NCBI RefSeq assembly: GCF_056712565.1
Contig: NZ_CM160072.1
Reading direction: 5' to 3' (one strand)
Length of the DNA: 64,000 nucleotides
The first letter of the stretch is position 1. The number at the start of each line of letters is the position of its first letter. Both the position numbers and the translations under genes were made by a program. Positions 6,279 to 20,919 of this stretch are shown in pieces. Under the pieces are notes generated by a model. That model saw only the letters and a program-made list of their open reading frames with translations, was not told the DNA's origin and did not search any database.

Positions 6279-8051
6279 ATGACCATCACCACAGACACCA
6301 CTCTTTTACACGACCCGCGTCGTCAGGCGGCGCTGCTGTACTGGCAGGGATTTTCCGTGCCGCAGATTGCCGCCATGTTGCAGATGAAACGCCCGACAGT
6401 GCAGAGCTGGAAACAGCGCGACGGCTGGGACAACGTTGCCCCCATCAGCCGTGTCGAAATGAGCCTGGAAGCGCGGCTGACCCAGCTCATCATCAAACCG
6501 CAGAAAACCGGCGGTGACTTCAAGGAAATTGACCTGCTGGGACGCCAGATTGAACGACTGGCACGGGTAAATCGTTACAGCCAGACCGGCAACGAGGCAG
6601 ACCTTAATCCGAACGTCGCTAACCGCAACAAAGGCGGGCGGCGCAAACCGAAAAAAAATTTTTTCAGTGACGAGGCCATCGAAAAGCTGGAGCAGATTTT
6701 CTTTGAGCAGTCTTTCGACTATCAGTTGCACTGGTATCGCGCCGGGCTTGAGCACCGCATCCGCGATATCCTGAAATCCCGCCAGATTGGCGCGACGTTT
6801 TATTTTTCCCGCGAGGCGCTGCTGCGCGCCCTGAAAACCGGCCATAACCAGATTTTTCTGTCGGCCAGTAAAACGCAGGCGTATGTGTTCCGCGAATACA
6901 TCATCGCCTTTGCCCGGCTGGTTGACGTTGACCTGACCGGTGACCCGATTGTCCTGGGCAATAACGGCGCAAAACTGATTTTTCTCGGCACCAACTCCAA
7001 CACCGCACAGAGCCATAACGGCGACCTGTACGTCGACGAGATTTTCTGGATCCCGAATTTTCAGGTACTGCGTAAGGTGGCATCAGGTATGGCCTCACAG
7101 AGTCACCTGCGCTCGACCTATTTCTCCACCCCGTCCACGCTGGCGCACGACGCCTACCCGTTCTGGTCAGGTGAACTGTTCAACCGGGGACGCGCCAGCG
7201 CCGCCGAACGCGTGGAAATCGACGTCAGTCATAACGCCCTTGCCGGTGGGCTTCTCTGTGCGGACGGCCAGTGGCGGCAGATTGTCACCATTGAGGACGC
7301 CCTGAAAGGTGGCTGCACGCTGTTCGACATTGAACAGCTCAAACGCGAAAACAGCGCCGACGATTTTAAAAACCTGTTCATGTGTGAATTTGTTGACGAC
7401 AAGGCGTCGGTGTTCCCGTTCGAGGAGCTGCAACGCTGCATGGTCGACACGCTGGAAGAATGGGAAGACTATGCGCCGTTTGCCGCCAATCCGTTCGGCT
7501 CCCGCCCGGTCTGGATTGGTTACGACCCGTCACACCGTGGCGACAGCGCCGGATGCGTGGTACTGGCACCGCCGGTGGTGGCCGGTGGCAAATTCAGAAT
7601 ACTTGAGCGTCACCAGTGGAAAGGCATGGACTTTGCCACTCAGGCGGAATCCATCCGCAAACTCACCGAAAAATACAACGTCGAATACATCGGTATTGAT
7701 GCCACCGGCCTCGGTGTCGGCGTGTTCCAGCTCGTGCGCTCGTTCTATCCCGCCGCGCGCGATATCCGCTACACGCCGGAAATGAAAACCGCAATGGTGC
7801 TCAAGGCAAAAGACGTCATCCGCCGTGGCTGTCTGGAATATGACGTCAGCGCCACCGACATCACCAGCTCGTTTATGGCTATCCGCAAGACCATGACCAG
7901 CAGCGGACGCAGCGCCACTTATGAGGCCAGCCGCAGCGAGGAAGCCAGCCACGCCGACCTCGCCTGGGCGACCATGCACGCCCTGTTAAATGAGCCACTC
8001 ACCGCCGGTATCAGCACCCCGCTGACATCCACCATTCTGGAGTTTTACTGA
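6279..8051 (+). CDS. P: Terminase large (ATPase) subunit (P2 gpP)
   Basis: 590 aa from ATG at 6279 preceded by GAGGT; MTITTDTTLLHDPRRQAALLYWQG... Confidence 0.9.
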   Translation: MTITTDTTLLHDPRRQAALLYWQGFSVPQIAAMLQMKRPTVQSWKQRDGWDNVAPISRVEMSLEARLTQLIIKPQKTGGDFKEIDLLGRQIERLARVNRYSQTGNEADLNPNVANRNKGGRRKPKKNFFSDEAIEKLEQIFFEQSFDYQLHWYRAGLEHRIRDILKSRQIGATFYFSREALLRALKTGHNQIFLSASKTQAYVFREYIIAFARLVDVDLTGDPIVLGNNGAKLIFLGTNSNTAQSHNGDLYVDEIFWIPNFQVLRKVASGMASQSHLRSTYFSTPSTLAHDAYPFWSGELFNRGRASAAERVEIDVSHNALAGGLLCADGQWRQIVTIEDALKGGCTLFDIEQLKRENSADDFKNLFMCEFVDDKASVFPFEELQRCMVDTLEEWEDYAPFAANPFGSRPVWIGYDPSHRGDSAGCVVLAPPVVAGGKFRILERHQWKGMDFATQAESIRKLTEKYNVEYIGIDATGLGVGVFQLVRSFYPAARDIRYTPEMKTAMVLKAKDVIRRGCLEYDVSATDITSSFMAIRKTMTSSGRSATYEASRSEEASHADLAWATMHALLNEPLTAGISTPLTSTILEFY

Positions 8052-9085
8052 TGAGCAAGAAAAAAGGGAAAACACCGCAACCTGCGGCAAAAAAAATGAC
8101 CGCCAGCGCCCCGAAAATGGAGGCATTCACCTTTGGTGAGCCGGTGCCGGTACTCGACCGCCGTGACATTCTGGATTACGTCGAGTGCATCAGTAACGGC
8201 AGATGGTATGAGCCGCCGGTCAGCTTTACCGGTCTGGCGAAAAGCCTGCGTGCTGCCGTGCATCACAGCTCACCGATTTACGTTAAACGCAATATTCTGG
8301 CCTCGACATTTATCCCGCATCCGTGGCTTTCGCAACAGGATTTCAGCCGCTTTGTGCTGGATTTTCTGGTGTTCGGTAATGCGTTTCTGGAAAAGCGTTA
8401 CAGCACCACCGGTAAGATCATCAGACTGGAAACCTCACCGGCAAAATATACCCGCCGTGGCGTGGAGGAGGATGTTTACTGGTGGGTGCCGTCCTTCAAC
8501 GAGCCGACACCTTTCGCGCCCGGTTCCGTGTTTCACCTGCTGGAGCCGGATATTAATCAGGAGCTGTACGGCCTGCCGGAATATCTCAGCGCCCTTAACT
8601 CTGCCTGGCTGAATGAGTCGGCCACGCTGTTCCGCCGCAAGTATTACGAAAACGGCGCGCATGCCGGATACATCATGTACGTCACCGATGCCGTGCAGGA
8701 CCGCAACGATATCGAAATGCTTCGCGAAAACATGGTGAAGTCGAAAGGCCGCAATAACTTTAAAAACCTGTTTCTCTATGCCCCACAGGGGAAAGCCGAC
8801 GGCATTAAAATTATCCCGCTCAGTGAAGTGGCGACGAAGGACGATTTTTTTAATATCAAAAAAGCCAGCGCCGTTGACCTGCTGGATGCGCACCGCATCC
8901 CCTTTCAGTTGATGGGCGGCAAGCCGGAAAACGTCGGGTCTCTGGGTGATATTGAGAAAGTGGCAAAGGTCTTTGTCCGCAATGAACTTATCCCGCTACA
9001 GGACAGGATTCGGGAAATAAACGGCTGGCTCGGTCAGGAGGTCATCCGCTTTAAAAACTACTCACTGGACACTGACAACGGCTGA
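8051..9085 (+). CDS. Q: Portal protein (P2 gpQ)
   Basis: 344 aa, ATGA overlap with P stop. Confidence 0.9.
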   Translation: MSKKKGKTPQPAAKKMTASAPKMEAFTFGEPVPVLDRRDILDYVECISNGRWYEPPVSFTGLAKSLRAAVHHSSPIYVKRNILASTFIPHPWLSQQDFSRFVLDFLVFGNAFLEKRYSTTGKIIRLETSPAKYTRRGVEEDVYWWVPSFNEPTPFAPGSVFHLLEPDINQELYGLPEYLSALNSAWLNESATLFRRKYYENGAHAGYIMYVTDAVQDRNDIEMLRENMVKSKGRNNFKNLFLYAPQGKADGIKIIPLSEVATKDDFFNIKKASAVDLLDAHRIPFQLMGGKPENVGSLGDIEKVAKVFVRNELIPLQDRIREINGWLGQEVIRFKNYSLDTDNG

Positions 9086-9090
9086 ACATC

Positions 9091-9112
9091 GCCGCCTGCG
9101 GGCGGCTTTTTT
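9091..9112 (+). terminator. Rho-independent terminator after Q
   Basis: GCCGCC-tgcg-GGCGGC hairpin followed by TTTTTT. Confidence 0.7.
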
Positions 9113-9254
9113 ACACCCCGTCATCACGCCCTCACACGCTCACCACCGCACAAAACACCCCGCAGACACACCAGCGCCTCAACGGGCAGACTAAGCGCCG
9201 TCACGACGCGCTGAGACGCTGAAAAAATAAAATCAGCACCACCGCCAGCGCGCA

Positions 9255-9273
9255 GTGCTTTCCCCGCCTCGCC
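9255..9273. other. P2 cos site (19-nt cohesive-end sequence)
   Basis: gtgctttccccgcctcgcc is the reverse complement of GGCGAGGCGGGGAAAGCAC, the P2 cohesive end as I recall it; about 170 nt downstream of Q as in P2. Confidence 0.6.
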
Positions 9274-9466
9274 CGCCCGCTTCATGGGGCGGTTTTAATG
9301 CAGTTGCATGATGAAACTGAAATCACATCAGCACTGACCGAAACTGACAAAAAGAATAGTATCTGACACATGCAAAAACACGCACTTAATATACGCCTAT
9401 CTATAGCTCCTACAGGATTGTCAAAAAACGACCAACTCGTCATAGCGTAAACACATTTGGCTCAAC

Positions 9467-9565
9467 GAACACTTACGTTATATGCCTCTTGAACATATCA
9501 AAGTCTTAAGGTAGATCTTTACCACTAAGTGGCTATATTAAGCTGCTTTTTTACATACAATAAAA
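9467..9565 (+). promoter_or_regulatory. Putative promoter region of the cargo gene (AT-rich; candidate -10 TATATT 9534-9539 or TACAAT 9556-9561)
   Basis: AT-rich upstream region with -10-like hexamers; no convincing -35; SD GAGG at 9578-9581. Confidence 0.25.
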
Positions 9566-9588
9566 GCTTTATCGTATGAGGCATAAAA

Positions 9589-11805
9589 ATGGAACTTAGA
9601 TTAAAAAATGTTACCAGTTATAAGAAAGACGCCTTCACAATACTGAATCTTGAAAAAAGAGTAAACATACTATACGGCCAAAATGGTTGTGGCAAATCTA
9701 CCATTTCAAATTATTTCTACGACTCTACACACACAGATTATAACGAGTGTGAATGTACCCTTCTTGACAATTACAAACCTCTTGTTTACAACACTAAATT
9801 TATTGAAGATAACTTCTATAATGCACAGGAACAAAAAGGTGTTTTTACATTAAGTAAAGAAAATGCAGATATTGAAAAACAATTAATTGAAAAAGAAGCA
9901 ATTAAACAGCAACTCACAGAGCAATATAGACAAAAAAAAGGAGTGTTATTGAAATTAGAAGCAGAAATGGAAAAAAAAGAAAATGAATACATCGAATCGA
10001 TCTGGAAAAAAACAGAACCAATCAGAAACTCTGTACTAAAAACCTTAATGAAAGGTAAAGTTGGCTATAAAAGACCTTTTTTTGAGATGATAAAATCATC
10101 CTCACCAATCACCTTTATTAATTTAAATGATATAGCAAAAGAATACTCTATACTATTAGAAAATAGAAACAATGAAACCGCATTAATAACTCCTTTACAT
10201 CCATATACCCCATCAATTGATGATGTAAATACATTAGCAACACCTATAATAGATACAAGCAATAGCTATTTATCAGAAACCATTAATAAACTTCATAATC
10301 TTGACTGGGTAAAAAAAGGTAAAGAACATTATTTAGACGGTTCTACATGTCCGTTTTGTCAGGAAAAAACTATTAGTCACGAATTTTTAAATGCCCTTAA
10401 ATCAATATTTGACGAAAGTTATTCAAAGAAAGTAAAACAGCTCTCAGATATAAAGTCAGTTTATGAGAAAAATACCATATATCATTTTAACGAAATACAA
10501 AACAATATATCATCATGTGCACTAATCAATGAGAAAGATAAAGAGAACATTATTTCCAATATTAAAATATTGCAAAACATTGCAGAAAAAAATTTAATAA
10601 ACATTATTGATAAGATCAACAATCCATCAACATGCGTTACATTAGAAATTGATAAAGAACTAGAAAATCATGTTCAGGAAAGCATAGGCGCTGTTAACAA
10701 GAAAATAAGAGACATAAATGATAAGGTTAAAAAACTCAAAGAGTATGAGAATAAAATCGGAAAACAAGTTTGGGGGGCTCTCCATGCTTTTTGCAGCGAT
10801 GATTTAGAGAATTTATCCAAACACAAAGAAAAATTCTTTGATATCAAAAAGAAAGTTCATGATGAATTAAATAATATTGAGCAACAAGGAAAAGAAAATA
10901 ATCTCACAATAAAAGCATTGCGAGATAAAATATCTAACATTGATTCTACGATAGACTCAATAAACACCCATTTAAAAAATCTAGGGATCTCTGGTTTTTG
11001 TATTGAAAAACATGCAGAAAGAAAAGATATGTACATTATATCTCGACCAGGGCATACAAAAAACCAAAATGTTTATAGATCTCTTAGCGAAGGTGAAAAA
11101 ACACTAATAACGTTTCTTTATTTTTTAGAGTGCTGTAAAGGTAAAACCGATAAAAATGATACCGATAGCAGGGATATTTTTATTGTTATTGACGATCCAA
11201 TATCTAGTCTATCGCAAAACTATGTCTACGACATCGCATCAATTATTCATCACCACATTATAAAAAATGAATTAACAAAGAAGGTATTAATCCTTACTCA
11301 CAATCTTTATTTCTTTCATGAACTTATTAAGCTATCTCCTAAAAGCAGAGAAGACAAACTATTTAAGAAAAACTATTATCTAGGTAGAGTAACGAAAAAT
11401 GATTTTAGTATAATTACTGAAATACAAAAAAACAGCATACAGAATGAATATCAATCTTTGTGGCAAATATTAAAAGATGCAAAAGATGGCAAAGCAAACA
11501 AAATCATAATACCGAATATTATGAGAAACATACTAGAATATTATTTTGCATTTGTTCATAGAACAGATGCTCTACAAGATGAATTAACAAAGTTGGCACG
11601 CGACGATAGCAACAGTGATTTCAAAGCATTCTACAGATACATTAACAGAGGTTCTCACTCTGATGCGGTAAATATTACTGATATGGGCGACATAGACCCA
11701 GATAAATACCTAAAACAATTGAGAACAATATTTTCAGCTACTGGTGACGAAATGCATTATTTAAAAATGATGGACGAACTAGAAGAGGAAAACGTTACCG
11801 CTTAG
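9589..11805 (+). CDS. ABC-type ATPase with coiled-coil/zinc-hook insertion and C-terminal effector-like domain; RloC/PrrC-like candidate anticodon nuclease (stand-alone defence gene)
   Basis: 738-aa ORF; Walker A GQNGCGKST, CPFC in a K/E/N-rich insert, LSEGEK signature, IFIVIDDP Walker B, LILTHN H-loop, C-terminal RNILE...H; strongly AT-rich relative to flanking prophage; sits in the P2 cos-A accessory position. Confidence 0.55.
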   Translation: MELRLKNVTSYKKDAFTILNLEKRVNILYGQNGCGKSTISNYFYDSTHTDYNECECTLLDNYKPLVYNTKFIEDNFYNAQEQKGVFTLSKENADIEKQLIEKEAIKQQLTEQYRQKKGVLLKLEAEMEKKENEYIESIWKKTEPIRNSVLKTLMKGKVGYKRPFFEMIKSSSPITFINLNDIAKEYSILLENRNNETALITPLHPYTPSIDDVNTLATPIIDTSNSYLSETINKLHNLDWVKKGKEHYLDGSTCPFCQEKTISHEFLNALKSIFDESYSKKVKQLSDIKSVYEKNTIYHFNEIQNNISSCALINEKDKENIISNIKILQNIAEKNLINIIDKINNPSTCVTLEIDKELENHVQESIGAVNKKIRDINDKVKKLKEYENKIGKQVWGALHAFCSDDLENLSKHKEKFFDIKKKVHDELNNIEQQGKENNLTIKALRDKISNIDSTIDSINTHLKNLGISGFCIEKHAERKDMYIISRPGHTKNQNVYRSLSEGEKTLITFLYFLECCKGKTDKNDTDSRDIFIVIDDPISSLSQNYVYDIASIIHHHIIKNELTKKVLILTHNLYFFHELIKLSPKSREDKLFKKNYYLGRVTKNDFSIITEIQKNSIQNEYQSLWQILKDAKDGKANKIIIPNIMRNILEYYFAFVHRTDALQDELTKLARDDSNSDFKAFYRYINRGSHSDAVNITDMGDIDPDKYLKQLRTIFSATGDEMHYLKMMDELEEENVTA

Positions 11806-11833
11806 GCCGCATATTATCGTTTTGGGTAAGAAC

Positions 11834-11853
11834 GACGGTGCTTACGCACCGTC
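11834..11853. terminator. Hairpin downstream of cargo gene (possible weak or bidirectional terminator)
   Basis: GACGGTGC-ttac-GCACCGTC perfect 8-bp stem; no clear T-run. Confidence 0.3.
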
Positions 11854-12028
11854 TCCCAACGCCCAAAGCGGTAGCGGTTGTACTGGCGTACATTCACTAG
11901 CTTTAACATGAGGCAATCTCCATGCCAGCACTATTGTTGCCAATAGCAGCCTTTATACCCTTTGTACAAAGCTAATACCAAGAGTAATGCAAAGTAGATG
12001 TCCCAAGCGGTAACGGGGCTATTCTATG

Positions 12029-14320
12029 TCAAACACAGAAAAAATCAAAGCGCCCTATGAATCCCCCCCAACCATCAGCGACCGGATACGTGAATTTTTT
12101 CCCGTCATAATTTACGGTCGCTCCACGCGCCAGCGCCTCAAGCTCCCATCGCTGCGGCATGATACCGTTCTGAGCAAGGTCAACGCGGATACGGGTGATT
12201 TGCAATCGTTCAGACCTGGTCAGTCTGGCAGATGGTGCAATTTCATGCGGTTTTAACGGGCTTCCGTTTCTTTGCTGACGGTTTGGCGTTCTCAGGTCGT
12301 ATTTTAATGCGCCCCTGAGCGCCCTCACGACCTCCGGTTCATTCCATTCAATAACACCGTCATCAACCAGATTAAGCACTGCTGCGGCGTGCTCAGAAGG
12401 TGTGGGAGCCGGTAACGAAGTATCACCACCGGTGAGCTTTCCACAGTTATTGACAGGACTCCGAGGCGCGGCGATGCCGCTTTTTAAAGTCAAAGGCTCA
12501 ACGACCGGAACTTTCGGCACAATGCGCCAGTCCGTCGTTCTGGTGATATGAATATGACGCGCGCCGAGATGCGGCGCGTAAATGCCGACCACTCTCTCGA
12601 CTTCTTCCTCGTACTCGTTAACGTCATCCGACGGGCTACGGGCAACCCTGACAGTCTGACAATCGCGCGGGACATTTGCCCCACCCTGCGCGCTGATATA
12701 CAACGCAAAATCACCACTGTCTGCGGCAGCGCGAGCAGCCTCGACGCGTTCGTCAAACTCATCAGCAATACTGACGCCGCGAGGCAATTTGCGTAGTTCA
12801 CGGTAAGCCCCCATTGTCGGCAGGCCAACCGTTTTAAATTGCGGAATTCGCCACGTTGACGCCCATGCGGTAACAGCCGCAGCAGTATCTTTCAGCGGCC
12901 TGCCGGTATCATTATCGAGCTGACCATCCAGTGCATAGCCATCGATGTTTTTTGAGATGTATTTTGCGATATACCCCGCAGCACCGCCCCGGTTAAGATG
13001 TTTTGCCTGAAAACGGTTTCGCGCGGCTCCTCTTTCGTCGCCATCCTCTTTGAGCGCATAGCGACGCATGATTTCGATAATCTGGTTACGCTGGCGTGGA
13101 TTACAAAAAAGCATCATATGCCAGTGCGGCGTTCCGTCGTGGTGTGGCTCGACGACACGCAAACCGTAGACCTGTAAATCATTATCCTTGAATGCCGTGC
13201 GCATCAGGCTCCAGATATGGCAGAGATAACGCTGCGCATCCTTTGGATTAAATGCCTCATCGTTCCAGCCGTGATTTAGCTGGACGGTTTTACTTTCGCC
13301 TTTTCCGACCTGACGTGTCGGGTGATACTTTGACGGCGCGGTAAGCGTGATAAACATCCCCACATCACCCTCTGCGGCGGCGTAACGCTCAATACCGGCA
13401 ATGGTGTTCATCAGCTCCATCCGGCGAATTTCAGGATTAGAAATACTGCCCATCACCTTACTGATAAGGTCGATGCGTTCGCCGGTTTCCCTGTTTTCAA
13501 GGTCACACGATTTAAGAAATTCCAGATTTGCCTGGCGGCGTGCACGCACATCACGAATGGCATGTTTACTGGCATAAGGTGAACGGTCTTTATTGACCTC
13601 CCCGACAGCAATCAGTAACGCCTCATGCCAGCGCATACGCTGGCCTTTAAGCTGACTAATCCACCACTCATCGTTAAACAGGCGGGCAATGGCAGAATAT
13701 GCCTGCCTCGTGGTCATCTGTCCTTTACGGTATTTTTTCCAGTAGAGCGGGGAAATATTGAAAGCACGTGCAGCGCCAGCAACATGACCATAGAGGTGAG
13801 CCTGCGCCTCATCCGTAAACAGCGATTCTTTTTCGCCATGCGCATCCACCCAGGCATCGCAGAGTTCCTCATACATCATGAAAAGCTGCGATGAGATACG
13901 GGCGGCAAACTTTTTCAGCTCCTTATCATTCATCCCCGGCAGACGCGCATAATGGTCACGCTCTGCCAGAAACAGCAACGACGCGTCGGTGTTCATTTCA
14001 TGGCGCTGATTCACACGCTCAATGCGCGGCCATAAACGACGCTGAAAAGTGGATGTGAGGAAATAAAACCCGTGCACCGGGCTTTTATTGCGCCGGATGT
14101 AGTCATAGCGTGAAGTAAACAGCGAGCGCAAAAAGTAAGGCAGGCGGTTAATCGTGGATAAAACACCTTGCACCTGACGCATCTCGTCACGTGTAAGGGG
14201 TCTTTCGCGCCCGACGGCCTCGCGTGGCGCGTTCCATGCATAAGCACCGGTAAACGTCTTACCGGTGCCTGCGGTAAATGCTGACGGAGGGACAAAACGC
14301 CCGGAGGCTTTAACGGCCAT
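12029..14320 (-). CDS. A: Replication initiation (rolling-circle nicking) protein (P2 gpA)
   Basis: Long ORF; start taken at ATG 14320 (MAVKASGRFVPPSAF...) rather than the ORF-track start at 14362. Confidence 0.9.
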   Translation of the reverse strand: MAVKASGRFVPPSAFTAGTGKTFTGAYAWNAPREAVGRERPLTRDEMRQVQGVLSTINRLPYFLRSLFTSRYDYIRRNKSPVHGFYFLTSTFQRRLWPRIERVNQRHEMNTDASLLFLAERDHYARLPGMNDKELKKFAARISSQLFMMYEELCDAWVDAHGEKESLFTDEAQAHLYGHVAGAARAFNISPLYWKKYRKGQMTTRQAYSAIARLFNDEWWISQLKGQRMRWHEALLIAVGEVNKDRSPYASKHAIRDVRARRQANLEFLKSCDLENRETGERIDLISKVMGSISNPEIRRMELMNTIAGIERYAAAEGDVGMFITLTAPSKYHPTRQVGKGESKTVQLNHGWNDEAFNPKDAQRYLCHIWSLMRTAFKDNDLQVYGLRVVEPHHDGTPHWHMMLFCNPRQRNQIIEIMRRYALKEDGDERGAARNRFQAKHLNRGGAAGYIAKYISKNIDGYALDGQLDNDTGRPLKDTAAAVTAWASTWRIPQFKTVGLPTMGAYRELRKLPRGVSIADEFDERVEAARAAADSGDFALYISAQGGANVPRDCQTVRVARSPSDDVNEYEEEVERVVGIYAPHLGARHIHITRTTDWRIVPKVPVVEPLTLKSGIAAPRSPVNNCGKLTGGDTSLPAPTPSEHAAAVLNLVDDGVIEWNEPEVVRALRGALKYDLRTPNRQQRNGSPLKPHEIAPSARLTRSERLQITRIRVDLAQNGIMPQRWELEALARGATVNYDGKKFTYPVADGWGGFIGRFDFFCV

Positions 14321-14585
14321 ATGAGCCAAAAGCCTCTGAACAACGCTTGCTGAGTTGCTCAACCTGCGCGTTTAAATCAGCAAAAGACTTTGCGCTTCCG
14401 GTCAGAATATCGTGATGCATCAGGCCGGAAACGAGCTGGCTTAATTTCGGGTAATAACCAACCACCGCCAGCCATTCCTGACCGGCGTTTTTACCGCTTT
14501 CCGCTCTCTTTTTCTCGTGGAGAATAAACTGAAAGCTGTCACTGGTAACGACATAACGTTCGCCAATTTCAATACGAATACTCAT
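14310..14585 (-). CDS. P2 early-operon small protein (orf80-83 family)
   Basis: 91-aa ORF immediately upstream of A. Confidence 0.6.
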   Translation of the reverse strand: MSIRIEIGERYVVTSDSFQFILHEKKRAESGKNAGQEWLAVVGYYPKLSQLVSGLMHHDILTGSAKSFADLNAQVEQLSKRCSEAFGSYGR

Positions 14586-14808: not shown

Positions 14809-15111
14809 TCAGCTCCTTTTATCGTTAAGTTTCCTGGATACATCAGCGCAATAACTGGCAAGTTCTGTCGTTAATTTTGTCAGTTCATCCACTGAGGAAA
14901 TTTGCTTGTGGAATACAGCGCGTTTAACAAGTAAATTGACCACATCAGACAGGAGGTTTAATTCATTCTGATAAATCGCGATAACAGATTCAGTGATGTC
15001 GCGTTTTTCTTTATCAAGACAAAGTTGAATAAGAGACAAATCGCCATTTTTCATAACGGCGATTTTTAAGGCGTTATTCAGTAATACAACTGAATGAGAA
15101 CAGGACATCAA
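14809..15111 (-). CDS. P2 early-operon small protein, hypothetical
   Basis: 100-aa ORF, tightly packed in early operon. Confidence 0.6.
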
Positions 15112-15332
15112 AGTACCTCCCCGCGAGACAATCCGATATTGTGAAATTTTTCCGACTCCTGACTGAGCAGCTCGACTATCTCCACGCGGGATAACTCCGC
15201 CTTTGTGATATGGCGAATCATGGCGTCAAGATGAGAAGAAAAGCGCGTCGCAGCGTCGGCCTGTGCTTCGGTTCTGGCCTGTTGCAGCAGTAATGCGTAT
15301 TTACCGCACTGATTTTCAGAAACTGTATGCAT
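15108..15332 (-). CDS. P2 early-operon small protein, hypothetical
   Basis: 74-aa ORF, overlapping stop/start with neighbour. Confidence 0.6.
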
Positions 15333-15395
15333 GACTTTCTCCGGGCAAAAAGAAGCCCCGCACGATTAAGCGCGTTAAAAACTCTGGTTAATTAC

Positions 15396-15902
15396 TTAAT
15401 GCAGATATTGCTCTGGTTTTACCGACGTCAGAATTGTCGGTGCATACTCAAACAGACTGAATAATTCACGTAATGCACGGAATAAAGCATCACGCCAGTA
15501 ACATGATTCCTCATTAATTCGCCAGTATGGCTGGTTAAATTCTTTTTCTGTCAGTCGTGCGTGCATAAATAAAGTGCGACGCTGACTGACTGTTAAAAAA
15601 CTAATATATGCATACTCACTTGCGCCAACCTGACGGCGTTTTGAGAATGCCCCACGCAACTCATCAATTGCACATACCAGTCGTTCACGTTCGACGTCGT
15701 TCATTTCTTCAAAACGCATCGTTGCGTGACGCTGTTTTAACTGCGCATGAAAGCAAACCGTTAGCCGTTCGCGCTCCATCATCTGATTATAATAATCACA
15801 TGTATCCTGCCAGCGAGGAACGGCAAGATGCTTACCAATTATCCGGCGCATAGCTGCTGGCTGTTTTTCAACGAGATTGAGCGTCATCACTGTCATTTCC
15901 AT
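15396..15902 (-). CDS. B: Replication protein B
   Basis: 168-aa ORF (possible real start at 15896, MTVMTLNL...); P2 position between cox and the small ORFs. Confidence 0.8.
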   Translation of the reverse strand: MEMTVMTLNLVEKQPAAMRRIIGKHLAVPRWQDTCDYYNQMMERERLTVCFHAQLKQRHATMRFEEMNDVERERLVCAIDELRGAFSKRRQVGASEYAYISFLTVSQRRTLFMHARLTEKEFNQPYWRINEESCYWRDALFRALRELFSLFEYAPTILTSVKPEQYLH

Positions 15903-16063
15903 ACCCTCCGGCTTTTCAGAAAGGTCAGAGCCTTTTTTAACGGACTCTGTTTTTTGGTGCGGATAATGATTCCCTTACGCCCCTTACCGTGGGTGATGGT
16001 GAAGTCAATCGCCCTGGGGCTTTCGTTACGCAATAACTGAGCAATACAACGAGGCTCGTTCAT
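15893..16063 (-). CDS. P2 orf78-like small protein
   Basis: 56 aa from ATG 16063 preceded by AAGGAG; lies between cox and B. Confidence 0.5.
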   Translation of the reverse strand: MNEPRCIAQLLRNESPRAIDFTITHGKGRKGIIIRTKKQSPLKKALTFLKSRRVWK

Positions 16064-16073
16064 ACGGTTCTCC

Positions 16074-16349
16074 TTAACGTGGTTCACCGAGACCTAACCA
16101 CATCAACCAGCCGTCACGAATCTCTTTAGGGCGGCTTTCATAAGCCAGTTTTAGTCCGTTATTCCATGCCGGAAGGTATACCCAATATTCACCTGCACGA
16201 CCTGAAGCTGATTGTGGATCGGTCATATCAATTACAGGCAGCTTTCCTTTATCGATCATCCGACGAACCGCTCCTGTCGATTTTCCTATTAGTTTTGCGA
16301 ACTCCTGATAAGGAATCGCATCAGTCATGAGTGTTACTTGCTTGCTCAT
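16074..16349 (-). CDS. cox: Cox (excisionase / transcriptional regulator)
   Basis: 91 aa, divergent from C. Confidence 0.85.
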   Translation of the reverse strand: MSKQVTLMTDAIPYQEFAKLIGKSTGAVRRMIDKGKLPVIDMTDPQSASGRAGEYWVYLPAWNNGLKLAYESRPKEIRDGWLMWLGLGEPR

Positions 16350-16463
16350 GTCGTCCCCCAGCCCTCATGAATTGCGTTTAATGCCTTATAATGCCTTTTA
16401 GTGCCCACATCCAAGCACTAAACAATCTACATCTAAACTAAATACCATTGAGATCTAAACACC
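16350..16463. promoter_or_regulatory. P2 immunity switch: Pe/Pc promoter region with two direct-repeat operator half-sites ATCTAAAC (16431-16438 and 16453-16460)
   Basis: Two identical 8-mers spaced 22 bp between divergent cox and C; TATAAT at 16386-16391. Confidence 0.5.
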
Positions 16464-16763
16464 ATGTCAAACACGATAAGCGAGAAGATAGTCTTAATGC
16501 GAAAATCAGAGTATTTGAGCAGACAACAACTTGCTGATTTAACAGGGGTTCCGTATGGCACGCTGAGTTACTATGAAAGTGGTCGTTCAACACCTCCAAC
16601 AGATGTCATGATGAACATCCTGCAGACCCCACAATTCACCAAATACACTTTATGGTTCATGACCAATCAGGTCGCTCCTGAGTCCGGGCAAATTGCGCCC
16701 GCTCTCGCACACTTTGGGCAAAACGAAACAACGTCGCCCCACTCCGGTCAAAAGACTGGTTAA
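16464..16763 (+). CDS. C: Immunity repressor C
   Basis: 99 aa MSNTISEKIVLMRKSEYLSRQQLADLTGVPYGTLSYYESG..., helix-turn-helix. Confidence 0.9.
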   Translation: MSNTISEKIVLMRKSEYLSRQQLADLTGVPYGTLSYYESGRSTPPTDVMMNILQTPQFTKYTLWFMTNQVAPESGQIAPALAHFGQNETTSPHSGQKTG

Positions 16764-16878
16764 CAATTTATCGTGAATATATTCATCACAAGTGCCTACT
16801 ATTGGTGGCTAAATTTCAGCCACCACGAAAAAAGCGATTAGTAGTAGCAAAAAAAAGTACCACTCGGAGGGTTTTCTG

Positions 16879-17892
16879 ATGGCAATCAAAAAACTCGATG
16901 ATGGTCGATATGAAGTGGACATCCGCCCTACTGGACGTAACGGAAAACGCATCCGTAGGAAGTTTGATAAGAAAAGCGAAGCTGTCGCTTTCGAAAAATA
17001 CACGTTGTACAACCACCACAATAAAGAATGGCTATCAAAACCAACAGACAAACGACGTCTGTCGGAACTGACACAGATCTGGTGGGATTTAAAGGGTAAA
17101 CACGAAGAGCATGGGAAATCTAATCTTGGAAAAATTGAAATCTTCACAAAAATAACGAATGACCCATGCGCATTTCAAATCACGAAATCCCTTATCAGCC
17201 AGTACTGCGCCACCCGAAGAAGCCAGGGTATTAAACCTTCGAGTATCAATCGTGATTTAACATGTATTAGCGGCATGTTTACAGCCCTGATTGAAGCGGA
17301 GTTATTCTTTGGTGAGCACCCTATCAGAGGGACAAAGAGGCTTAAGGAGGAAAAACCAGAAACAGGCTATCTCACACAGGAAGAAATTGCCTTACTGCTT
17401 GCAGCACTTGACGGCGACAATAAAAAGATTGCGATTCTTTGCCTGAGTACAGGAGCACGTTGGGGAGAAGCAGCTCGTTTGAAAGCAGAAAATATCATCC
17501 ATAACCGCGTCACGTTTGTTAAAACGAAAACAAACAAACCACGCACCGTCCCGATTTCAGAGGCTGTTGCCAAAATGATCGCGGATAACAAACGAGGTTT
17601 TTTATTCCCTGATGCTGATTACCCTCGCTTCAGACGAACAATGAAAGCAATAAAACCGGATTTGCCAATGGGGCAAGCCACACATGCACTAAGGCACAGC
17701 TTTGCCACTCATTTCATGATTAATGGAGGAAGTATTATCACGCTACAACGGATACTAGGTCACACGCGGATTGAGCAAACTATGGTTTACGCTCATTTTG
17801 CGCCAGAGTACCTTCAGGACGCCATTTCTCTTAATCCGCTAAGAGGTGGTACTGAGGCCGAGAGTGTCCACACAGTGTCCACAGTAGAGTAA
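16879..17892 (+). CDS. int: Tyrosine integrase
   Basis: 337 aa with C-terminal R...H-x-x-R...Y catalytic signature (HALRHSFATH ... MVYAHF). Confidence 0.95.
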   Translation: MAIKKLDDGRYEVDIRPTGRNGKRIRRKFDKKSEAVAFEKYTLYNHHNKEWLSKPTDKRRLSELTQIWWDLKGKHEEHGKSNLGKIEIFTKITNDPCAFQITKSLISQYCATRRSQGIKPSSINRDLTCISGMFTALIEAELFFGEHPIRGTKRLKEEKPETGYLTQEEIALLLAALDGDNKKIAILCLSTGARWGEAARLKAENIIHNRVTFVKTKTNKPRTVPISEAVAKMIADNKRGFLFPDADYPRFRRTMKAIKPDLPMGQATHALRHSFATHFMINGGSIITLQRILGHTRIEQTMVYAHFAPEYLQDAISLNPLRGGTEAESVHTVSTVE

Positions 17893-17971
17893 CGTTTAAG
17901 GGCTTTCAGTGGTAATTTATGCCGCTCAAACCCGCATTGTACCGTTGAAAGCCCCTACTGGTGACACCCTA

Positions 17972-17998
17972 AATCTCCCTTACACGGGCTTATTTTTT
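17972..17998. other. P2 att core (prophage end, int-proximal)
   Basis: aatctcccttacacgggcttatttttt is the reverse complement of the 27-nt P2 core AAAAAATAAGCCCGTGTAAGGGAGATT as I recall it; 80 nt downstream of int. Confidence 0.55.
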
Positions 17999-18326
17999 AT
18001 GCATAAGCCCTATCCCTGGTCACCGTCTTCCATTGACCACATCGATAGAATCCTCCTTCATAGCACGATGCTTTTCACTTATCGACATCGTGCTCGCACA
18101 GGTTCCGGTTACGCACAGCCAGAACGCGCATGTTTGACGCTTACCAAAAAATGAACCTAAAGCATTGGAACATTTTTGACATCATTTTCTGATGGCTGCA
18201 TAAAATAAAAATTCTGCTTTAGTTTCATCTATCTGTTTGTCATTATTACTCACATTCAATAATGGTGTTGAAGAATATCCCATCACAGATAAAATAAATA
18301 TGTGCATGGTAGTCTTGAATCTATTC

Positions 18327-18644
18327 TCACTCTCCACATTTGAATGTCAGACGAGCGACGCCATGTAATCCTGCACCTTCTGTCTTCAGGTCAACTATCT
18401 GCATTTTTTTGCCCTGAGTAACACAGAAATGAACTGCATCATTTTTTACTATATTTTCTGCACCAGATATTCTACCCCTGGCTAAAGAAGCTTCGGCTTC
18501 GGTGTAGTATTGGTTATCGAGTTTACGCTGAATATTACTTTTATATGCAAGACCAAATTTACCGATACTTGTCTCATCATTATGTACAGCACACCCAGAC
18601 ATAAGAAAAACACTAATTAATGATATAGCAGCTATCTTTTTCAT
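18327..18644 (-). CDS. yegR: Lipoprotein YegR
   Basis: 105 aa from ATG 18644 with SD; signal peptide and lipobox MSGC. Confidence 0.6.
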   Translation of the reverse strand: MKKIAAISLISVFLMSGCAVHNDETSIGKFGLAYKSNIQRKLDNQYYTEAEASLARGRISGAENIVKNDAVHFCVTQGKKMQIVDLKTEGAGLHGVARLTFKCGE

Positions 18645-19059
18645 CTCACCTTCCCCCATTAAATACCAACGACACTCTCTAGTGTTTAAATATAATAATG
18701 GCATGATTATTATAATTGAATAGGATTATAATAAATGTTCTGTACAACATTTCCTACATAAGTAGGAATTACAGACATGGTGGCCCTTCCGGGTAACCCT
18801 ATGGGGGGCTTAAATATATTTTGAATAGTATATTTAAGATGCCACTATTTAGTTGAATATTAGATATTTGCTCTTTTTTCAAATTTACTGGTGGCTACCG
18901 TTAATATTCGCTGTTCCCATTGCAAGCTCCTGGTGGTAACCACTGAATCCTCCATACTTGAACTGACTTTTTATCCTCCGACTTTCATCCTGTTCTGACT
19001 CCACCTTTTCTTTTCTGCTCTACACTATCTACAGACCAATCATAAAGGCACATACGATC

Positions 19060-19959
19060 ATGGCAGAATTTCCCGCCAGCTTACTGATTCTTAATGGCAA
19101 AAGTACTGACAATCTACCCTTGCGCGAAGCAATTATGCTGTTGCGTGAGGAAGGAATGACGATCCATGTGCGGGTCACCTGGGAGAAAGGCGATGCCGCA
19201 CGATATGTAGAGGAGGCACGGAAGTTGGGCGTCGCAACGGTGATTGCCGGTGGTGGCGATGGCACCATTAATGAAGTTTCTACGGCGTTGATTCAGTGTG
19301 AGGGGGATGACATACCCGCGCTGGGAATTTTACCATTAGGAACCGCCAATGATTTTGCCACCAGTGTAGGGATTCCTGAGGCACTGGATAAGGCGCTGAA
19401 ACTGGCAATTGCCGGTAACGCCATTGCGATAGATATGGCGCAGGTCAATAAACAAACCTGTTTTATTAATATGGCGACAGGCGGATTTGGGACGCGTATT
19501 ACCACAGAAACGCCGGAAAAATTAAAAGCCGCGCTGGGTGGCGTCTCTTACATCATTCATGGCTTAATGCGCATGGATACTCTGCAACCGGACCGTTGTG
19601 AGATCCGCGGTGAAAACTTTCACTGGCAAGGTGACGCCCTGGTCATTGGTATTGGTAACGGGCGTCAGGCCGGTGGCGGTCAACAATTGTGCCCGAACGC
19701 ATTAATTAACGATGGCTTGCTGCAACTGCGCATTTTTACCGGCGATGAAATTATTCCGACTCTCGTATCAACCTTAAAATCTGACGAAGATAACCCGAAT
19801 ATTATCGAAGGTGCTTCGTCGTGGTTTGATATACAAGCCCCACACGAAATCACTTTTAATCTTGATGGCGAACCGTTGAGTGGGCAAAACTTCCATATTG
19901 AAATACTTCCGGCGGCGTTGCGTTGTCGATTACCACCAGATTGTCCATTGTTGCGTTAA
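19060..19959 (+). CDS. yegS: Lipid kinase YegS
   Basis: 299 aa with DAG-kinase-like GGDGT motif. Confidence 0.9.
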
Positions 19960-19997
19960 TAAAACTATTCTCTGTTGAACCAGAGAGAATCCGTAAT

Positions 19998-20031
19998 GCC
20001 GGATGCGGTGTAAACACCTCATCCGGCATAC
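19998..20031. repeat. REP (repetitive extragenic palindrome) element
   Basis: gccggatgcggtgtaaacacctcatccggcatac between convergent yegS and gatR. Confidence 0.5.
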
Positions 20032-20040
20032 AGAACAATA

Positions 20041-20820
20041 CTACACCGTAATTAATTTTACCCGTGTCTTCTGCAATGCCAGTTTATCCACCTCAGACAC
20101 AGCATCATCGGTAATAATAATGTCAATTTTTTCGATTGGCAGTACCTGATTAAAACCGCGACGGTTAAATTTCGATGAATCGAGAACGGCAATCACTTTA
20201 TTCGCCGCTGTCACCATCGCACCGCTAACGGAATAACCTTCATTAAAGGTCGTAATACCATTAACCGCATCAATACCATCAGCACCGACAAACATTAAAT
20301 CGGCATTAATATCCTGCAGGGAACGTTCAGCAATAGATCCATGCATAGATCGCGTTTTATGGCGGACCGTGCCACCGCAGACGACCAGAGTAATGTCTTT
20401 ATTTTCGGAAAGGGCAAACGCCGCCGGGAGACTGTTGGTAATCACCGTGATATTTTTGGCGGTCATTAAACCTTCGGCGATAAGCATTGTGGTACTTCCG
20501 CTGTCGAGAATAACGGTCATCCCTTCGTGGATCATTTTGACTGCCGCCTGCGCTATTCTGTTTTTTGGCGCACTGGCGAGCTGAAATCGCTCTTTAAACC
20601 CAACTTCCTGGGTCTCGGTTTCACTATTACCGGACATTATTTTCGCCGCACCGCCATGAAAGCGCGTAACCACGCCTTTTTGTTCGAGAAAGCGCAAATC
20701 GGCACGGATTGTCGCTTCCGAGGCAGCAAATACTCCCGCCAGATCCTGAACAAGCACGGTTCCCTGTTCATTCACTAATTGGATGATCTTATTCCTTCGC
20801 TCGAATGAATTCATCGTCAT
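20041..20820 (-). CDS. gatR: DeoR-family galactitol operon repressor GatR (intact)
   Basis: 259-aa uninterrupted ORF upstream of the gat operon. Confidence 0.85.
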   Translation of the reverse strand: MTMNSFERRNKIIQLVNEQGTVLVQDLAGVFAASEATIRADLRFLEQKGVVTRFHGGAAKIMSGNSETETQEVGFKERFQLASAPKNRIAQAAVKMIHEGMTVILDSGSTTMLIAEGLMTAKNITVITNSLPAAFALSENKDITLVVCGGTVRHKTRSMHGSIAERSLQDINADLMFVGADGIDAVNGITTFNEGYSVSGAMVTAANKVIAVLDSSKFNRRGFNQVLPIEKIDIIITDDAVSEVDKLALQKTRVKLITV

Positions 20821-20919
20821 TTACCCATATTCAATTGTGGCTAGTGTAAACGAAGGGGGACCATTGGTGAATGATCTGTTTTGCACAATACCGGGCCAGC
20901 ATCACGCTGGCCCGCGGTT

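What the first reader, a model, noticed from the sequence alone, without database searches (positions are those of the whole stretch)
11320..11805. C-terminal domain with R-x3-E and His residues: candidate nuclease effector
Residues about 578-738, after the ATPase H-loop, form a separate module containing RNILE (aa 646-650), H657 and NRGSH (aa 687-690). PrrC/RloC anticodon nucleases use an Arg-Glu-His catalytic set in a C-terminal HEPN-like domain. The spacing here is suggestive but not diagnostic.
Basis: inference. Interest (0 to 1): 0.6.

Follow-up and report, generated by a model that had tools for sequence, protein, structure and literature searches.

The report
Prophage RloC-type anticodon nuclease domain
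The flagged C-terminal stretch is very probably the RNA-cutting (HEPN-type anticodon nuclease) domain of an RloC-family protein carried as anti-phage cargo by a P2-like prophage of E. coli. This same protein was already listed as an RloC orthologue in 2008, so the finding is correct but not new.

Summary
ORF 9589-11805 (+, 738 aa) has RNILE at aa 646-650, H657 and NRGSH at aa 686-690, downstream of a complete ABC-ATPase motif set.

The nuclease interpretation is supported, with corrections:
- Across 105 homologues (17-66% identity) the conserved set is N643, R646, N647, E650, R683, N686, S689, H690 and H723.
- H657 is variable (49/105), so it is not catalytic.
- R646-x3-E650-x39-S689-H690 fits the published RloC motif (Arg-X3-Glu-X36-52-His, with Ser before His).
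- R683-x2-N686-x3-H690 reproduces EcoPrrC R349/N352/H356, an HEPN Rx6H motif.
- A profile-profile comparison with PrrC nuclease domains aligns these residues in register (P 1e-4 to 6e-4; best of 40 controls 0.017).

The gene is a 30%-GC single-gene cassette just past an exact P2 cos site, in the old/tin defence hotspot.

The 2008 RloC paper lists this protein (E. coli APEC O1 YP_852004, 738 aa) as an RloC orthologue. The 2013 HEPN survey appears to name it as a prophage ABC-HEPN prototype. I found no experimental test of this protein.

Verdict: already known, low to moderate interest.

The parts
9589..11805 (+). rloC-like gene, 738 aa: an ABC-ATPase head split by a coiled-coil/zinc-hook insert, followed by a C-terminal HEPN-type anticodon-nuclease domain. 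GC is 29.7% against 53% in the flanking phage genes.
   Evidence: ORF and translation. Pfam AAA_13 aa 17-716, E 2e-111. PADLOC PDC-S06, E 1e-254. 100% identical to WP_000423308.1 in E. coli APEC O1 and about 40 other complete genomes. GC values.
9676..9702 (+). Walker A / P-loop (aa 30-38, GQNGCGKST)
   Evidence: G30, G35 and K36 are invariant in 44 diverse homologues.
9856..10980 (+). Insert splitting the ATPase head (aa 90-464). Long antiparallel helices 90-141 and 403-464 enclose a helical middle region.
   Evidence: Full-length AlphaFold model, pLDDT 82.5. Best PDB matches are Rad50, SMC heads and Lamassu LmuB.
10348..10359 (+). CPFC (aa 254-257), a candidate zinc hook of the Rad50/RloC CxxC type
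   Evidence: C254 and C257 are invariant in 105/105 homologues. They lie in a loop at aa 249-263 of the model. The RloC definition includes a CXXC hook.
11083..11100 (+). ABC signature motif LSEGEK (aa 499-504)
   Evidence: G502 and E503 are invariant.
11176..11211 (+). Walker B and D-loop, IFIVIDDPISSL (aa 530-541)
   Evidence: D535, D536, P537 and S540 are invariant. The counterpart in EcoPrrC is YVFIDD...SSLD.
11284..11304 (+). H-loop / switch, VLILTHN (aa 566-572)
   Evidence: T570 and H571 are invariant.
11305..11439 (+). Linker between head and nuclease (aa 573-617): two short helices and a beta-hairpin.
   Evidence: DSSP of both AlphaFold models.
11440..11778 (+). HEPN-like helical bundle (aa 618-730), the predicted anticodon-nuclease domain
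11515..11538 (+). Catalytic motif 1, N643-I-M-R646-N647-I-L-E650, equivalent to EcoPrrC R320-N321-x2-E324
   Evidence: Conservation 105, 104, 83 (+20 R/K) and 102 of 105. In-register hhalign alignment to PrrC LLRNLYE. PrrC and RloC mutagenesis in the literature.
11635..11661 (+). Catalytic motif 2, R683-Y-I-N686-R-G-S689-H690-S691. This is an HEPN Rx6H motif, equivalent to EcoPrrC R349-x2-N352-x3-H356.
   Evidence: Conservation R683 88, N686 97, S689 102 and H690 103 of 105. Aligned to PrrC RIINFTSHS. H690 lies in a low-confidence loop of the full-length model.
11557..11559 (+). H657 codon.
   Evidence: His in 49/105 homologues; E, G, Q, R or C in the rest.
11755..11769 (+). H723-Y-L-K-M727, a family-specific conserved 'HYxxMM' motif in the last helix, with no counterpart in PrrC
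   Evidence: H723 101/105, Y724 95/105 and M727 98/105. The PrrC C-termini end in NYGFWQ-type sequences instead.
9255..9273 (-). P2 cos site (19-nt cohesive-end sequence, exact match). It marks the left border of the cargo hotspot.
   Evidence: Exact match, none expected by chance. The query sequence came from my own knowledge of P2. The P2 hotspot lies between gpQ/cos and gpA.
8051..9085 (+). P2-type portal protein gene (gpQ), left flank of the hotspot
   Evidence: ORF. RefSeq product 'phage portal protein'.
12029..14362 (-). P2-type replication endonuclease gene (gpA), right flank of the hotspot
   Evidence: ORF. RefSeq product 'replication endonuclease'.

Best explanation
The region encodes the C-terminal effector domain of an RloC-type anticodon nuclease carried as single-gene cargo in the old/tin defence hotspot of a P2-like prophage.

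Proposed mechanism, by homology with Geobacillus and Acinetobacter RloC:
1. The N-terminal Rad50-like ABC-ATPase, with its coiled-coil arm and CPFC zinc hook, keeps the nuclease silent.
2. A DNA signal produced during infection (DNA ends or breaks) stimulates ATP hydrolysis and switches the nuclease on.
3. The HEPN-type domain (aa ~618-730) then cuts tRNA anticodon loops without metal, leaving a 2',3'-cyclic phosphate. The active site is built from R646, N647 and E650 on one helix and R683, N686, S689 and H690 at the start of another. The enzyme may excise the wobble nucleotide.
4. Translation stops and the superinfecting phage is aborted.

Shown here: the domain architecture, the conserved residues and their register with PrrC, the fold class (weakly), the genomic context, and the prior literature assignment.

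Inferred: RNase activity, tRNA as substrate, the DNA trigger, and the anti-phage phenotype.
For: Architecture: Pfam AAA_13 covers aa 17-716. A complete and invariant ABC motif set plus invariant C254/C257 are seen in 44-105 homologues. AlphaFold gives an ABC head, an antiparallel coiled coil and a C-terminal bundle. The nearest solved folds are Rad50, SMC and LmuB.

Nuclease domain:
- R646-x3-E650-x39-S689-H690 fits the published RloC motif and is about 97-99% conserved.
- N647, R683 and N686 sit at the same spacing as EcoPrrC's strictly essential N321, R349 and N352.
- hhalign against 38 PrrC nuclease regions gives P 5.8e-4 and 1.2e-4, with all six residues in register. The best of 40 controls is 0.017. 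The PrrC regions were confirmed as PrrC by PADLOC (E 6e-97).
- In the reciprocal direction, the PrrC fragments hit PDC-S06 models through to their C-terminal ends.

Literature:
- RloC paper, Table S1 row 51: E. coli APEC O1 YP_852004, 738 aa, flanked by phage replication-initiation and capsid genes.
- The HEPN survey names APECO1_4465 as a prophage ABC-HEPN prototype.
- RloC triad mutants lose ACNase activity and toxicity. RloC is switched on by its DNA-dependent ATPase and by DSB inducers.

Context: a 30%-GC single-gene cassette lies between an exact P2 cos site and gpA. This is the documented P2 defence hotspot, where this exact protein accession is catalogued. Homologues in Streptococcus prophages are annotated 'translation-disabling ACNase'.
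Against: - I found no experimental data for this protein. It was not among the P2-hotspot systems cloned by Rousset et al., and PADLOC still lists it only as candidate PDC-S06.
- The C-domain alone gives no PADLOC PrrC hit, no Pfam HEPN family hit and no solved-structure relative by sequence.
- PrrC's essential His295, His297 and His315 have no His counterpart here. There is no His between aa 578 and 656, and Q622 aligns with H295 in a low-confidence part of the alignment.
- The catalytic loop around H690 is modelled with low confidence.
- I could not fetch the characterised RloCs (G. kaustophilus, A. baylyi), so their distance from this clade was not measured. The HEPN survey treats the APECO1_4465 group as a clade beside RloC and PrrC.
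Confidence: 0.8

Rival explanations
1. The domain is an active HEPN RNase, but its physiological substrate is not the tRNA anticodon loop. It could instead cut mRNA or rRNA, as RnlA/LsoA-type HEPN toxins cut mRNA, or cut a different part of tRNA.
For: HEPN domains include indiscriminate mRNases. PrrC's lysine-anticodon recognition motif (LARP, KYGDSNKSFSY) and His295/His315 are absent here. The family-specific HYxxMM motif has no PrrC counterpart.
Against: The closest characterised relatives by sequence and architecture (PrrC, RloC) are all anticodon nucleases. The catalytic residues are in register with theirs. RloCs already differ among themselves in tRNA preference without leaving the anticodon loop.
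Confidence: 0.1
2. The C-terminal bundle is a non-catalytic regulatory or nucleic-acid-binding HEPN-like domain. Any toxicity would then come from the ATPase or from an unidentified partner.
For: Some HEPN domains are non-catalytic, such as MtlR. Fold matches are weak. An older annotation paired the gene with a 'hypothetical' neighbour.
Against: Near-invariance of exactly those residues whose mutation kills PrrC and RloC is hard to explain without catalysis. Current RefSeq annotation shows a single-gene cassette with no partner.
Confidence: 0.04
3. The protein is mainly a Rad50/SMC/LmuB-like DNA-end sensor that acts on DNA, or recruits a host nuclease, in the manner of Lamassu.
For: The best structural matches for the full-length model are Rad50, SMC heads and Lamassu LmuB. 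A PADLOC LmuB model hits at E 2e-10.
Against: Those matches cover only the ABC head and coiled coil. [quoted passage not shown] No LmuA-type effector gene is adjacent. The C-domain carries the ACNase residues.
Confidence: 0.03

Closest known systems
RloC (Geobacillus kaustophilus and Acinetobacter baylyi wobble-nucleotide-excising anticodon nuclease; Davidov & Kaufmann 2008)
   Same: - Size is in the RloC range: 738 aa against 658-897.
- The ABC-ATPase head is split by a coiled-coil insert with a CxxC hook.
- The C-terminal motif Arg-X3-Glu-X36-52-(Ser)His is present, with E-to-H spacing of 39 residues here against 40 in GkaRloC.
- There is no linked R-M silencer.
- This very protein is row 51 of the paper's orthologue table.
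   Different: - It is prophage-borne, in the P2 cos-proximal hotspot.
- It is about 65 aa shorter than GkaRloC, with the hook at C254/C257 against about C291.
- The HEPN survey puts the APECO1_4465 group in a clade beside RloC proper.
- No biochemical data exist for it, and its identity to the characterised RloCs was not measured here.
PrrC (E. coli tRNA-Lys anticodon nuclease)
   Same: - It has an ABC-ATPase followed by a C-terminal HEPN nuclease.
- R320/N321/E324 and R349/N352/H356 correspond in register to R646/N647/E650 and R683/N686/H690.
- The profile-profile P value is 1e-4 to 6e-4.
- The PADLOC PrrC model hits the full protein at E 1e-12.
   Different: - PrrC is 341-416 aa, without a coiled-coil or hook insert.
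- PrrC is always embedded in a type Ic hsd locus that silences it.
- PrrC has a LARP motif and essential His295/297/315 that are absent here.
- The E-to-H spacing is 31 in PrrC against 39 here.
P2 Old (ABC-ATPase + TOPRIM), the cargo of the same hotspot in phage P2
   Same: It occupies the same locus, between cos/gpQ and gpA. It follows the same logic of an ABC-ATPase sensor fused to a nuclease effector. A 2026 preprint reports Old as an abortive tRNase triggered by DNA defects.
   Different: Its effector fold is TOPRIM (metal-dependent) rather than HEPN. It lacks a long coiled-coil or zinc hook. There is no sequence relationship beyond the ABC head.
PADLOC candidate system PDC-S06
   Same: The full-length HMM match is E 1e-254 over profile positions 4-724 of 727.
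   Different: PDC-S06 is only a computational candidate label with no described mechanism. The evidence here suggests that at least this part of PDC-S06 corresponds to RloC-family proteins.
Rad50/SbcC and Lamassu LmuB
   Same: They are the best structural matches for the ABC head plus coiled coil, and Rad50 has a CxxC hook.
   Different: None of them has the C-terminal HEPN nuclease domain. They act with separate nuclease subunits.

Membership tests
RloC (sensu Davidov & Kaufmann 2008) | ABC-ATPase motifs: Walker A, signature, Walker B/D-loop and linchpin His | tested here: met
   All are present and invariant in 44 diverse homologues. Pfam AAA_13 E 2e-111.
RloC (sensu Davidov & Kaufmann 2008) | Coiled-coil insert with a CXXC zinc hook splitting the ATPase domain (Rad50-like) | tested here: met
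   CPFC 254-257 is invariant in 105/105. The model shows antiparallel helices 90-141 and 403-464. Top PDB matches are Rad50 and SMC. Zinc binding itself was not tested.
RloC (sensu Davidov & Kaufmann 2008) | C-proximal Arg-X3-Glu-X36-52-His motif, with Ser often preceding His | tested here: met
   R646-x3-E650-x39-S689-H690. Conserved in 104, 102, 102 and 103 of 105 homologues. Motif definition.
RloC (sensu Davidov & Kaufmann 2008) | Size 658-897 aa, about twice PrrC | tested here: met
   738 aa. The range is given.
RloC (sensu Davidov & Kaufmann 2008) | Anticodon-loop cleavage with excision of the wobble nucleotide | not testable with these tools
   This is a biochemical property, shown only for G. 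kaustophilus and A. baylyi RloC.
RloC (sensu Davidov & Kaufmann 2008) | Internal switch: DNA-dependent ATPase and zinc hook control the nuclease | not testable with these tools
   Known from GkaRloC. Here only the sequence elements are present.
PrrC | Compact 341-416 aa ABC-ATPase plus nuclease, without a coiled-coil insert | tested here: not met
   738 aa, with an insert of about 375 aa at aa 90-464.
PrrC | Gene embedded in a type Ic R-M (hsd) locus that silences it | tested here: not met
   The gene is flanked by the P2 portal gene, cos and gpA, and no hsd genes are adjacent.
PrrC | Nuclease-domain residues R320, N321, E324, R349, N352 and H356 | tested here: met
   hhalign places R646, N647, E650, R683, N686 and H690 in register. 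Essentiality in PrrC.
PrrC | LARP anticodon-recognition motif and essential His295/His315 | tested here: not met
   There is no His between aa 578 and 656. PrrC's GDSNKSFSYH aligns, at low confidence, with NSIQNEYQ.
HEPN superfamily | Rx4-6H motif at the start of a helix | tested here: met
   R683-x6-H690. R683 is conserved in 88/105 and H690 in 103/105. The motif sits at the helix 676-686 to loop junction.
HEPN superfamily | All-alpha up-down helical bundle fold similar to solved HEPN domains | tested here: inconclusive
P2 old/tin hotspot cargo (Rousset et al. 2022) | Located between the cos/portal gene gpQ and the replication gene gpA of a P2-like prophage | tested here: met
   Portal gene at 8051-9085, exact cos at 9255-9273, cassette at 9300-11800, gpA at 12029-14362. 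WP_000423308 is listed in their Table S5A.
PADLOC PDC-S06 | Full-length match to the PDC-S06 HMMs | tested here: met
   PDLC04886, E 1.3e-254, aa 2-730 against profile positions 4-724 of 727.

The most novel reading that the evidence does not exclude
The prophage clade typified by this protein (APECO1_4465 / PDC-S06) may be more than a copy of RloC.

- It lacks PrrC's upstream essential histidines.
- It has its own near-invariant C-terminal H723-Y724-x2-M727 motif.

It could therefore use a differently composed active site, for example a second histidine for the double incision. It could also have a distinct tRNA target set or trigger, such as the DNA ends of a superinfecting phage sensed from a cos-adjacent prophage gene. 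If so, it would be a separately evolving anticodon-nuclease subtype that still awaits its first phenotype.
Probability: 0.25. Interest if true: 0.45.

Novelty: already known. Interest (0 to 1): 0.28.

Why it matters
The value is mainly in annotation.

- RefSeq calls the protein 'AAA family ATPase', PHROGs lists its family as 'unknown function', and PADLOC lists it only as a candidate (PDC-S06).
- It can be named with confidence as an RloC-family ABC-HEPN anticodon nuclease, with a defined list of residues to mutate.
- It shows that the P2 old/tin hotspot can swap one ABC-ATPase-plus-tRNase (Old, TOPRIM) for another (RloC-type, HEPN).
- I found no published phage-plating test of an RloC-type gene in the papers I searched. 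This E. coli prophage copy, found at 99% identity or more and near full length in 41 of 5,426 complete E. coli genomes, would be a convenient one to test.

Tried and rejected
- **Solved structures by sequence:** the full protein gave no hit at E <= 1. The C-domain profile gave only a chance GntR hit at E 0.5. No structure of a PrrC/RloC nuclease domain appears to be available.
- **C-domain alone against PADLOC:** only PDC-S06 models matched, with no PrrC hit even at E <= 10. The full-length PrrC hit is therefore carried largely by the ATPase lobe, which is why I went to profile-profile comparison.
- **Other libraries:** no Pfam HEPN families matched the C-domain alignment. NCBIfam gave nothing relevant. 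PHROGs gave only 'unknown function' families.
- **AFDB Foldseek:** it returned only the protein's own family under auto-assigned names, so it is not independent evidence.
- **Searches that missed PrrC:** a protein search with the C-domain alignment returned only fragments of the same family. PrrC sequences were finally retrieved with a pseudo-query built from EcoPrrC motifs printed in Meineke & Shuman 2010.
- **H657 as a catalytic residue:** rejected, because it is not conserved.
- **A partner gene:** an old annotation lists 'AAA_13 + hypothetical WP_077461969'. Current RefSeq records show a single gene, and no convincing small ORF was seen.
- **Promoter scan:** no better than shuffles.
- **tRNA genes in the window:** none.
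- **CRISPR I-F repeats, expected from the APEC O1 neighbourhood:** none, because the window comes from a strain with a different integration site.
- **Supplement of the HEPN paper:** it does not hold the APECO1_4465 alignment. The identity of APECO1_4465 with this ORF is therefore very likely but not formally shown.
Full report
**1. What is at the coordinates.**
The finding covers nt 11320-11805, which is aa 578-738 plus the stop codon of a 738-aa ORF at 9589-11805 on the + strand. RNILE is at aa 646-650 and H657 is present. Upstream lies a full ABC-ATPase motif set: Walker A 33-38, signature 499-504, Walker B/D-loop 535-540 and H-loop 569-572. The ORF has 29.7% GC, against 53% in the flanking genes.

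**2. Is the motif more than chance?**
The loose motif is not: R-x3-E-x30-52-H appears in 54% of shuffles of this protein. The signal comes from conservation. I collected 118 homologues and aligned 105 full-length ones at 17-66% identity. In the C-terminal region the (near-)invariant residues are:
- N643 (105/105), R646 (104) and E650 (102, plus 2 Asp)
- N686 (97), S689 (102) and H690 (103)
- H723 (101)
- N647 (83, otherwise R/K) and R683 (88) are also well conserved

H657 is His in only 49 of 105, so it is not a catalytic candidate.

**3. Comparison with the published catalytic sets.**
[quoted passage not shown] In G. kaustophilus RloC, R692, E696 and H737 are each required for ACNase activity and toxicity. 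Here the pattern is R646-x3-E650-x39-S689-H690.

Meineke & Shuman found EcoPrrC R320, N321, E324, R349, N352 and H356 essential. Here R646-N647-x2-E650 and R683-x2-N686-x3-H690 have the same internal spacing. R683-x6-H690 is also the HEPN Rx4-6H motif of Anantharaman et al..

**4. Direct homology test.**
The full protein hits the PADLOC PrrC model (E 1e-12, envelope aa 490-730). The C-domain alone does not, so a more sensitive test was needed.

I retrieved PrrC C-terminal fragments with a pseudo-query assembled from EcoPrrC motifs quoted in the literature. PADLOC confirms them as PrrC (E 6e-97).

hhalign of my C-domain alignment against 38 non-redundant PrrC post-H-loop regions gave P = 5.8e-4. 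With both sides trimmed to the nuclease core it gave P = 1.2e-4. The six residues above were in register. The best of 39 column-shuffled controls was 0.017, and the reversed profile gave 0.25.

The similarity is weak but real, and it sits exactly on the active-site motifs. PrrC's LARP motif and His295/His315 have no counterpart here. This family instead has its own conserved H723-Y-x2-M motif.

**5. Structure.**
AlphaFold2 of aa 575-738 with 45 sequences (pLDDT 83.6, pTM 0.76) gives a short helix and beta-hairpin linker, then an all-helical bundle at aa 620-727. R646 and E650 lie on helix 638-655. R683 and N686 lie at the end of helix 676-686, with S689 and H690 in the following loop.

The full-length model (pLDDT 82.5) shows an ABC head, long antiparallel helices 90-141 and 403-464, and the invariant CPFC in a loop at aa 249-263. 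The H690 loop has low confidence. The best PDB matches are Rad50, SMC heads and Lamassu LmuB, which matches the 'Rad50-like' description of RloC.

**6. Genomic context.**
The gene follows the P2-type terminase and portal genes. An exact 19-nt P2 cos sequence lies at 9255-9273; the query sequence came from my own knowledge of P2. The gene precedes the P2-type replication endonuclease gpA, which is on the opposite strand.

This is the cos-proximal old/tin hotspot that Rousset et al. showed to be a reservoir of anti-phage systems. Their Table S5A lists this exact accession, WP_000423308, as 'AAA_13 (+ hypothetical)'. It is not among the systems they cloned.

The 2.8-kb cassette is at least 99% identical and nearly full length in 41 of 5,426 complete E. 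coli genomes. It occurs in prophages integrated at different sites: next to pflA in APEC O1, and next to yegS/yegR in the strain matching this window. A 65%-identical copy is in Enterobacter phage ENT4. Homologues at 26% identity in Streptococcus prophages are annotated 'translation-disabling ACNase'.

**7. Prior knowledge.**
Supplementary Table 1 of the RloC paper lists 'Escherichia coli APEC O1, YP_852004, 738 aa, flanking genes: phage replication initiation, capsid' as RloC orthologue no. 51. APEC O1 has a single copy, 100% identical to this ORF, with those same flanks.

The HEPN superfamily survey names 'APECO1_4465 (gi 117623091)' from avian pathogenic E. coli as the prototype of prophage-borne ABC-HEPN proteins, next to PrrC and RloC. 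It proposes that they exclude other phages. This is very probably the same protein, but I could not confirm the accession mapping.

Current databases do not reflect this assignment. RefSeq says 'AAA family ATPase', PHROGs says 'unknown function', and PADLOC says 'PDC-S06'.

**8. Mechanism and confidence.**
By homology with RloC, the most likely mechanism has three steps:
- The Rad50-like ATPase and hook keep the nuclease off.
- DNA ends or breaks arising during infection stimulate ATP hydrolysis and switch the nuclease on.
- The HEPN site cuts anticodon loops, possibly excising the wobble base, which halts translation and aborts the infection.

The architecture, conserved residues, context and literature assignment are shown. 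Activity, substrate, trigger and phenotype are inferred. I put 0.8 on this explanation as a whole, and more than 0.9 on homology of the domain to the PrrC/RloC nuclease.

The rivals are each unlikely: another RNA substrate, a non-catalytic domain, or a DNA-directed SMC-like role.

**9. Verdict.**
- Drop H657 from the catalytic set.
- Add N647, R683, N686 and H723.
- Start the domain at about aa 618.

The assignment is already in the literature for this very protein, so novelty is low. What remains open is the experimental test, and whether this prophage clade differs in active-site make-up, target or trigger.

Noticed in passing
window 9255-9273 (- strand): An exact copy of the 19-nt P2 cohesive-end (cos) sequence sits between the portal gene and the low-GC cassette. 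The cargo therefore begins within about 30-50 bp of cos.
   Followed up: partly
window ~9300-11810: There are sharp GC borders: 55-63% GC before 9300, 22-41% across the cassette, and back to about 53% after 11800. This points to a recently acquired single-gene module, 100% identical in dozens of E. coli genomes.
   Followed up: partly
window 15000-21000; L001/L004 (E. coli APEC O1): The same 2.8-kb cassette rides in P2-like prophages integrated at different chromosomal sites. It is next to yegS/yegR in the strains matching this window (HS13-1, SF-468) and next to pflA in APEC O1. The integrase ORF lengths also differ (337 vs 331 aa).
   Followed up: partly
window 11755-11769 (aa 723-727): The near-invariant H723-Y724-x2-M727 motif in the last helix of the C-domain is absent from PrrC C-termini.
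   Followed up: partly
window 10348-10359 (aa 254-257): The CPFC motif is invariant in all 105 homologues and resembles the Rad50 CPVC zinc hook. It is preceded by a conserved D239-W240...G244 segment. It lies outside the finding's coordinates but is central to the likely regulation.
   Followed up: partly
window 11834-11853: A perfect 8-bp hairpin (GACGGTGC-TTAC-GCACCGTC) lies about 30 nt after the stop codon, between the convergent rloC-like and gpA genes. No T-run follows on either strand. Its function is unknown.
   Followed up: no
window 9085-9589 and 11805-12260: Rousset et al. Table S5A pairs WP_000423308 with a 'hypothetical' WP_077461969. Current RefSeq records annotate no second gene, and I could not tell which small ORF was meant (53-aa ORFs at 9124-9285 and 9282-9443 on the - strand, or a 76-aa ORF at 12026-12256).
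   Followed up: partly
aa 690-696 of the ORF (window ~11656-11676): In the full-length AlphaFold model the loop carrying the catalytic His has pLDDT below 50, although it is the most conserved part of the domain. It may be ordered only in an oligomer or when substrate is bound.
   Followed up: no
L004 (E. coli APEC O1, record 888139-897915): APEC O1 carries a type I-F CRISPR-Cas locus (csy2 is a pseudogene) about 25 kb from its copy of the prophage. This locus is absent from the window's strain.
   Followed up: no
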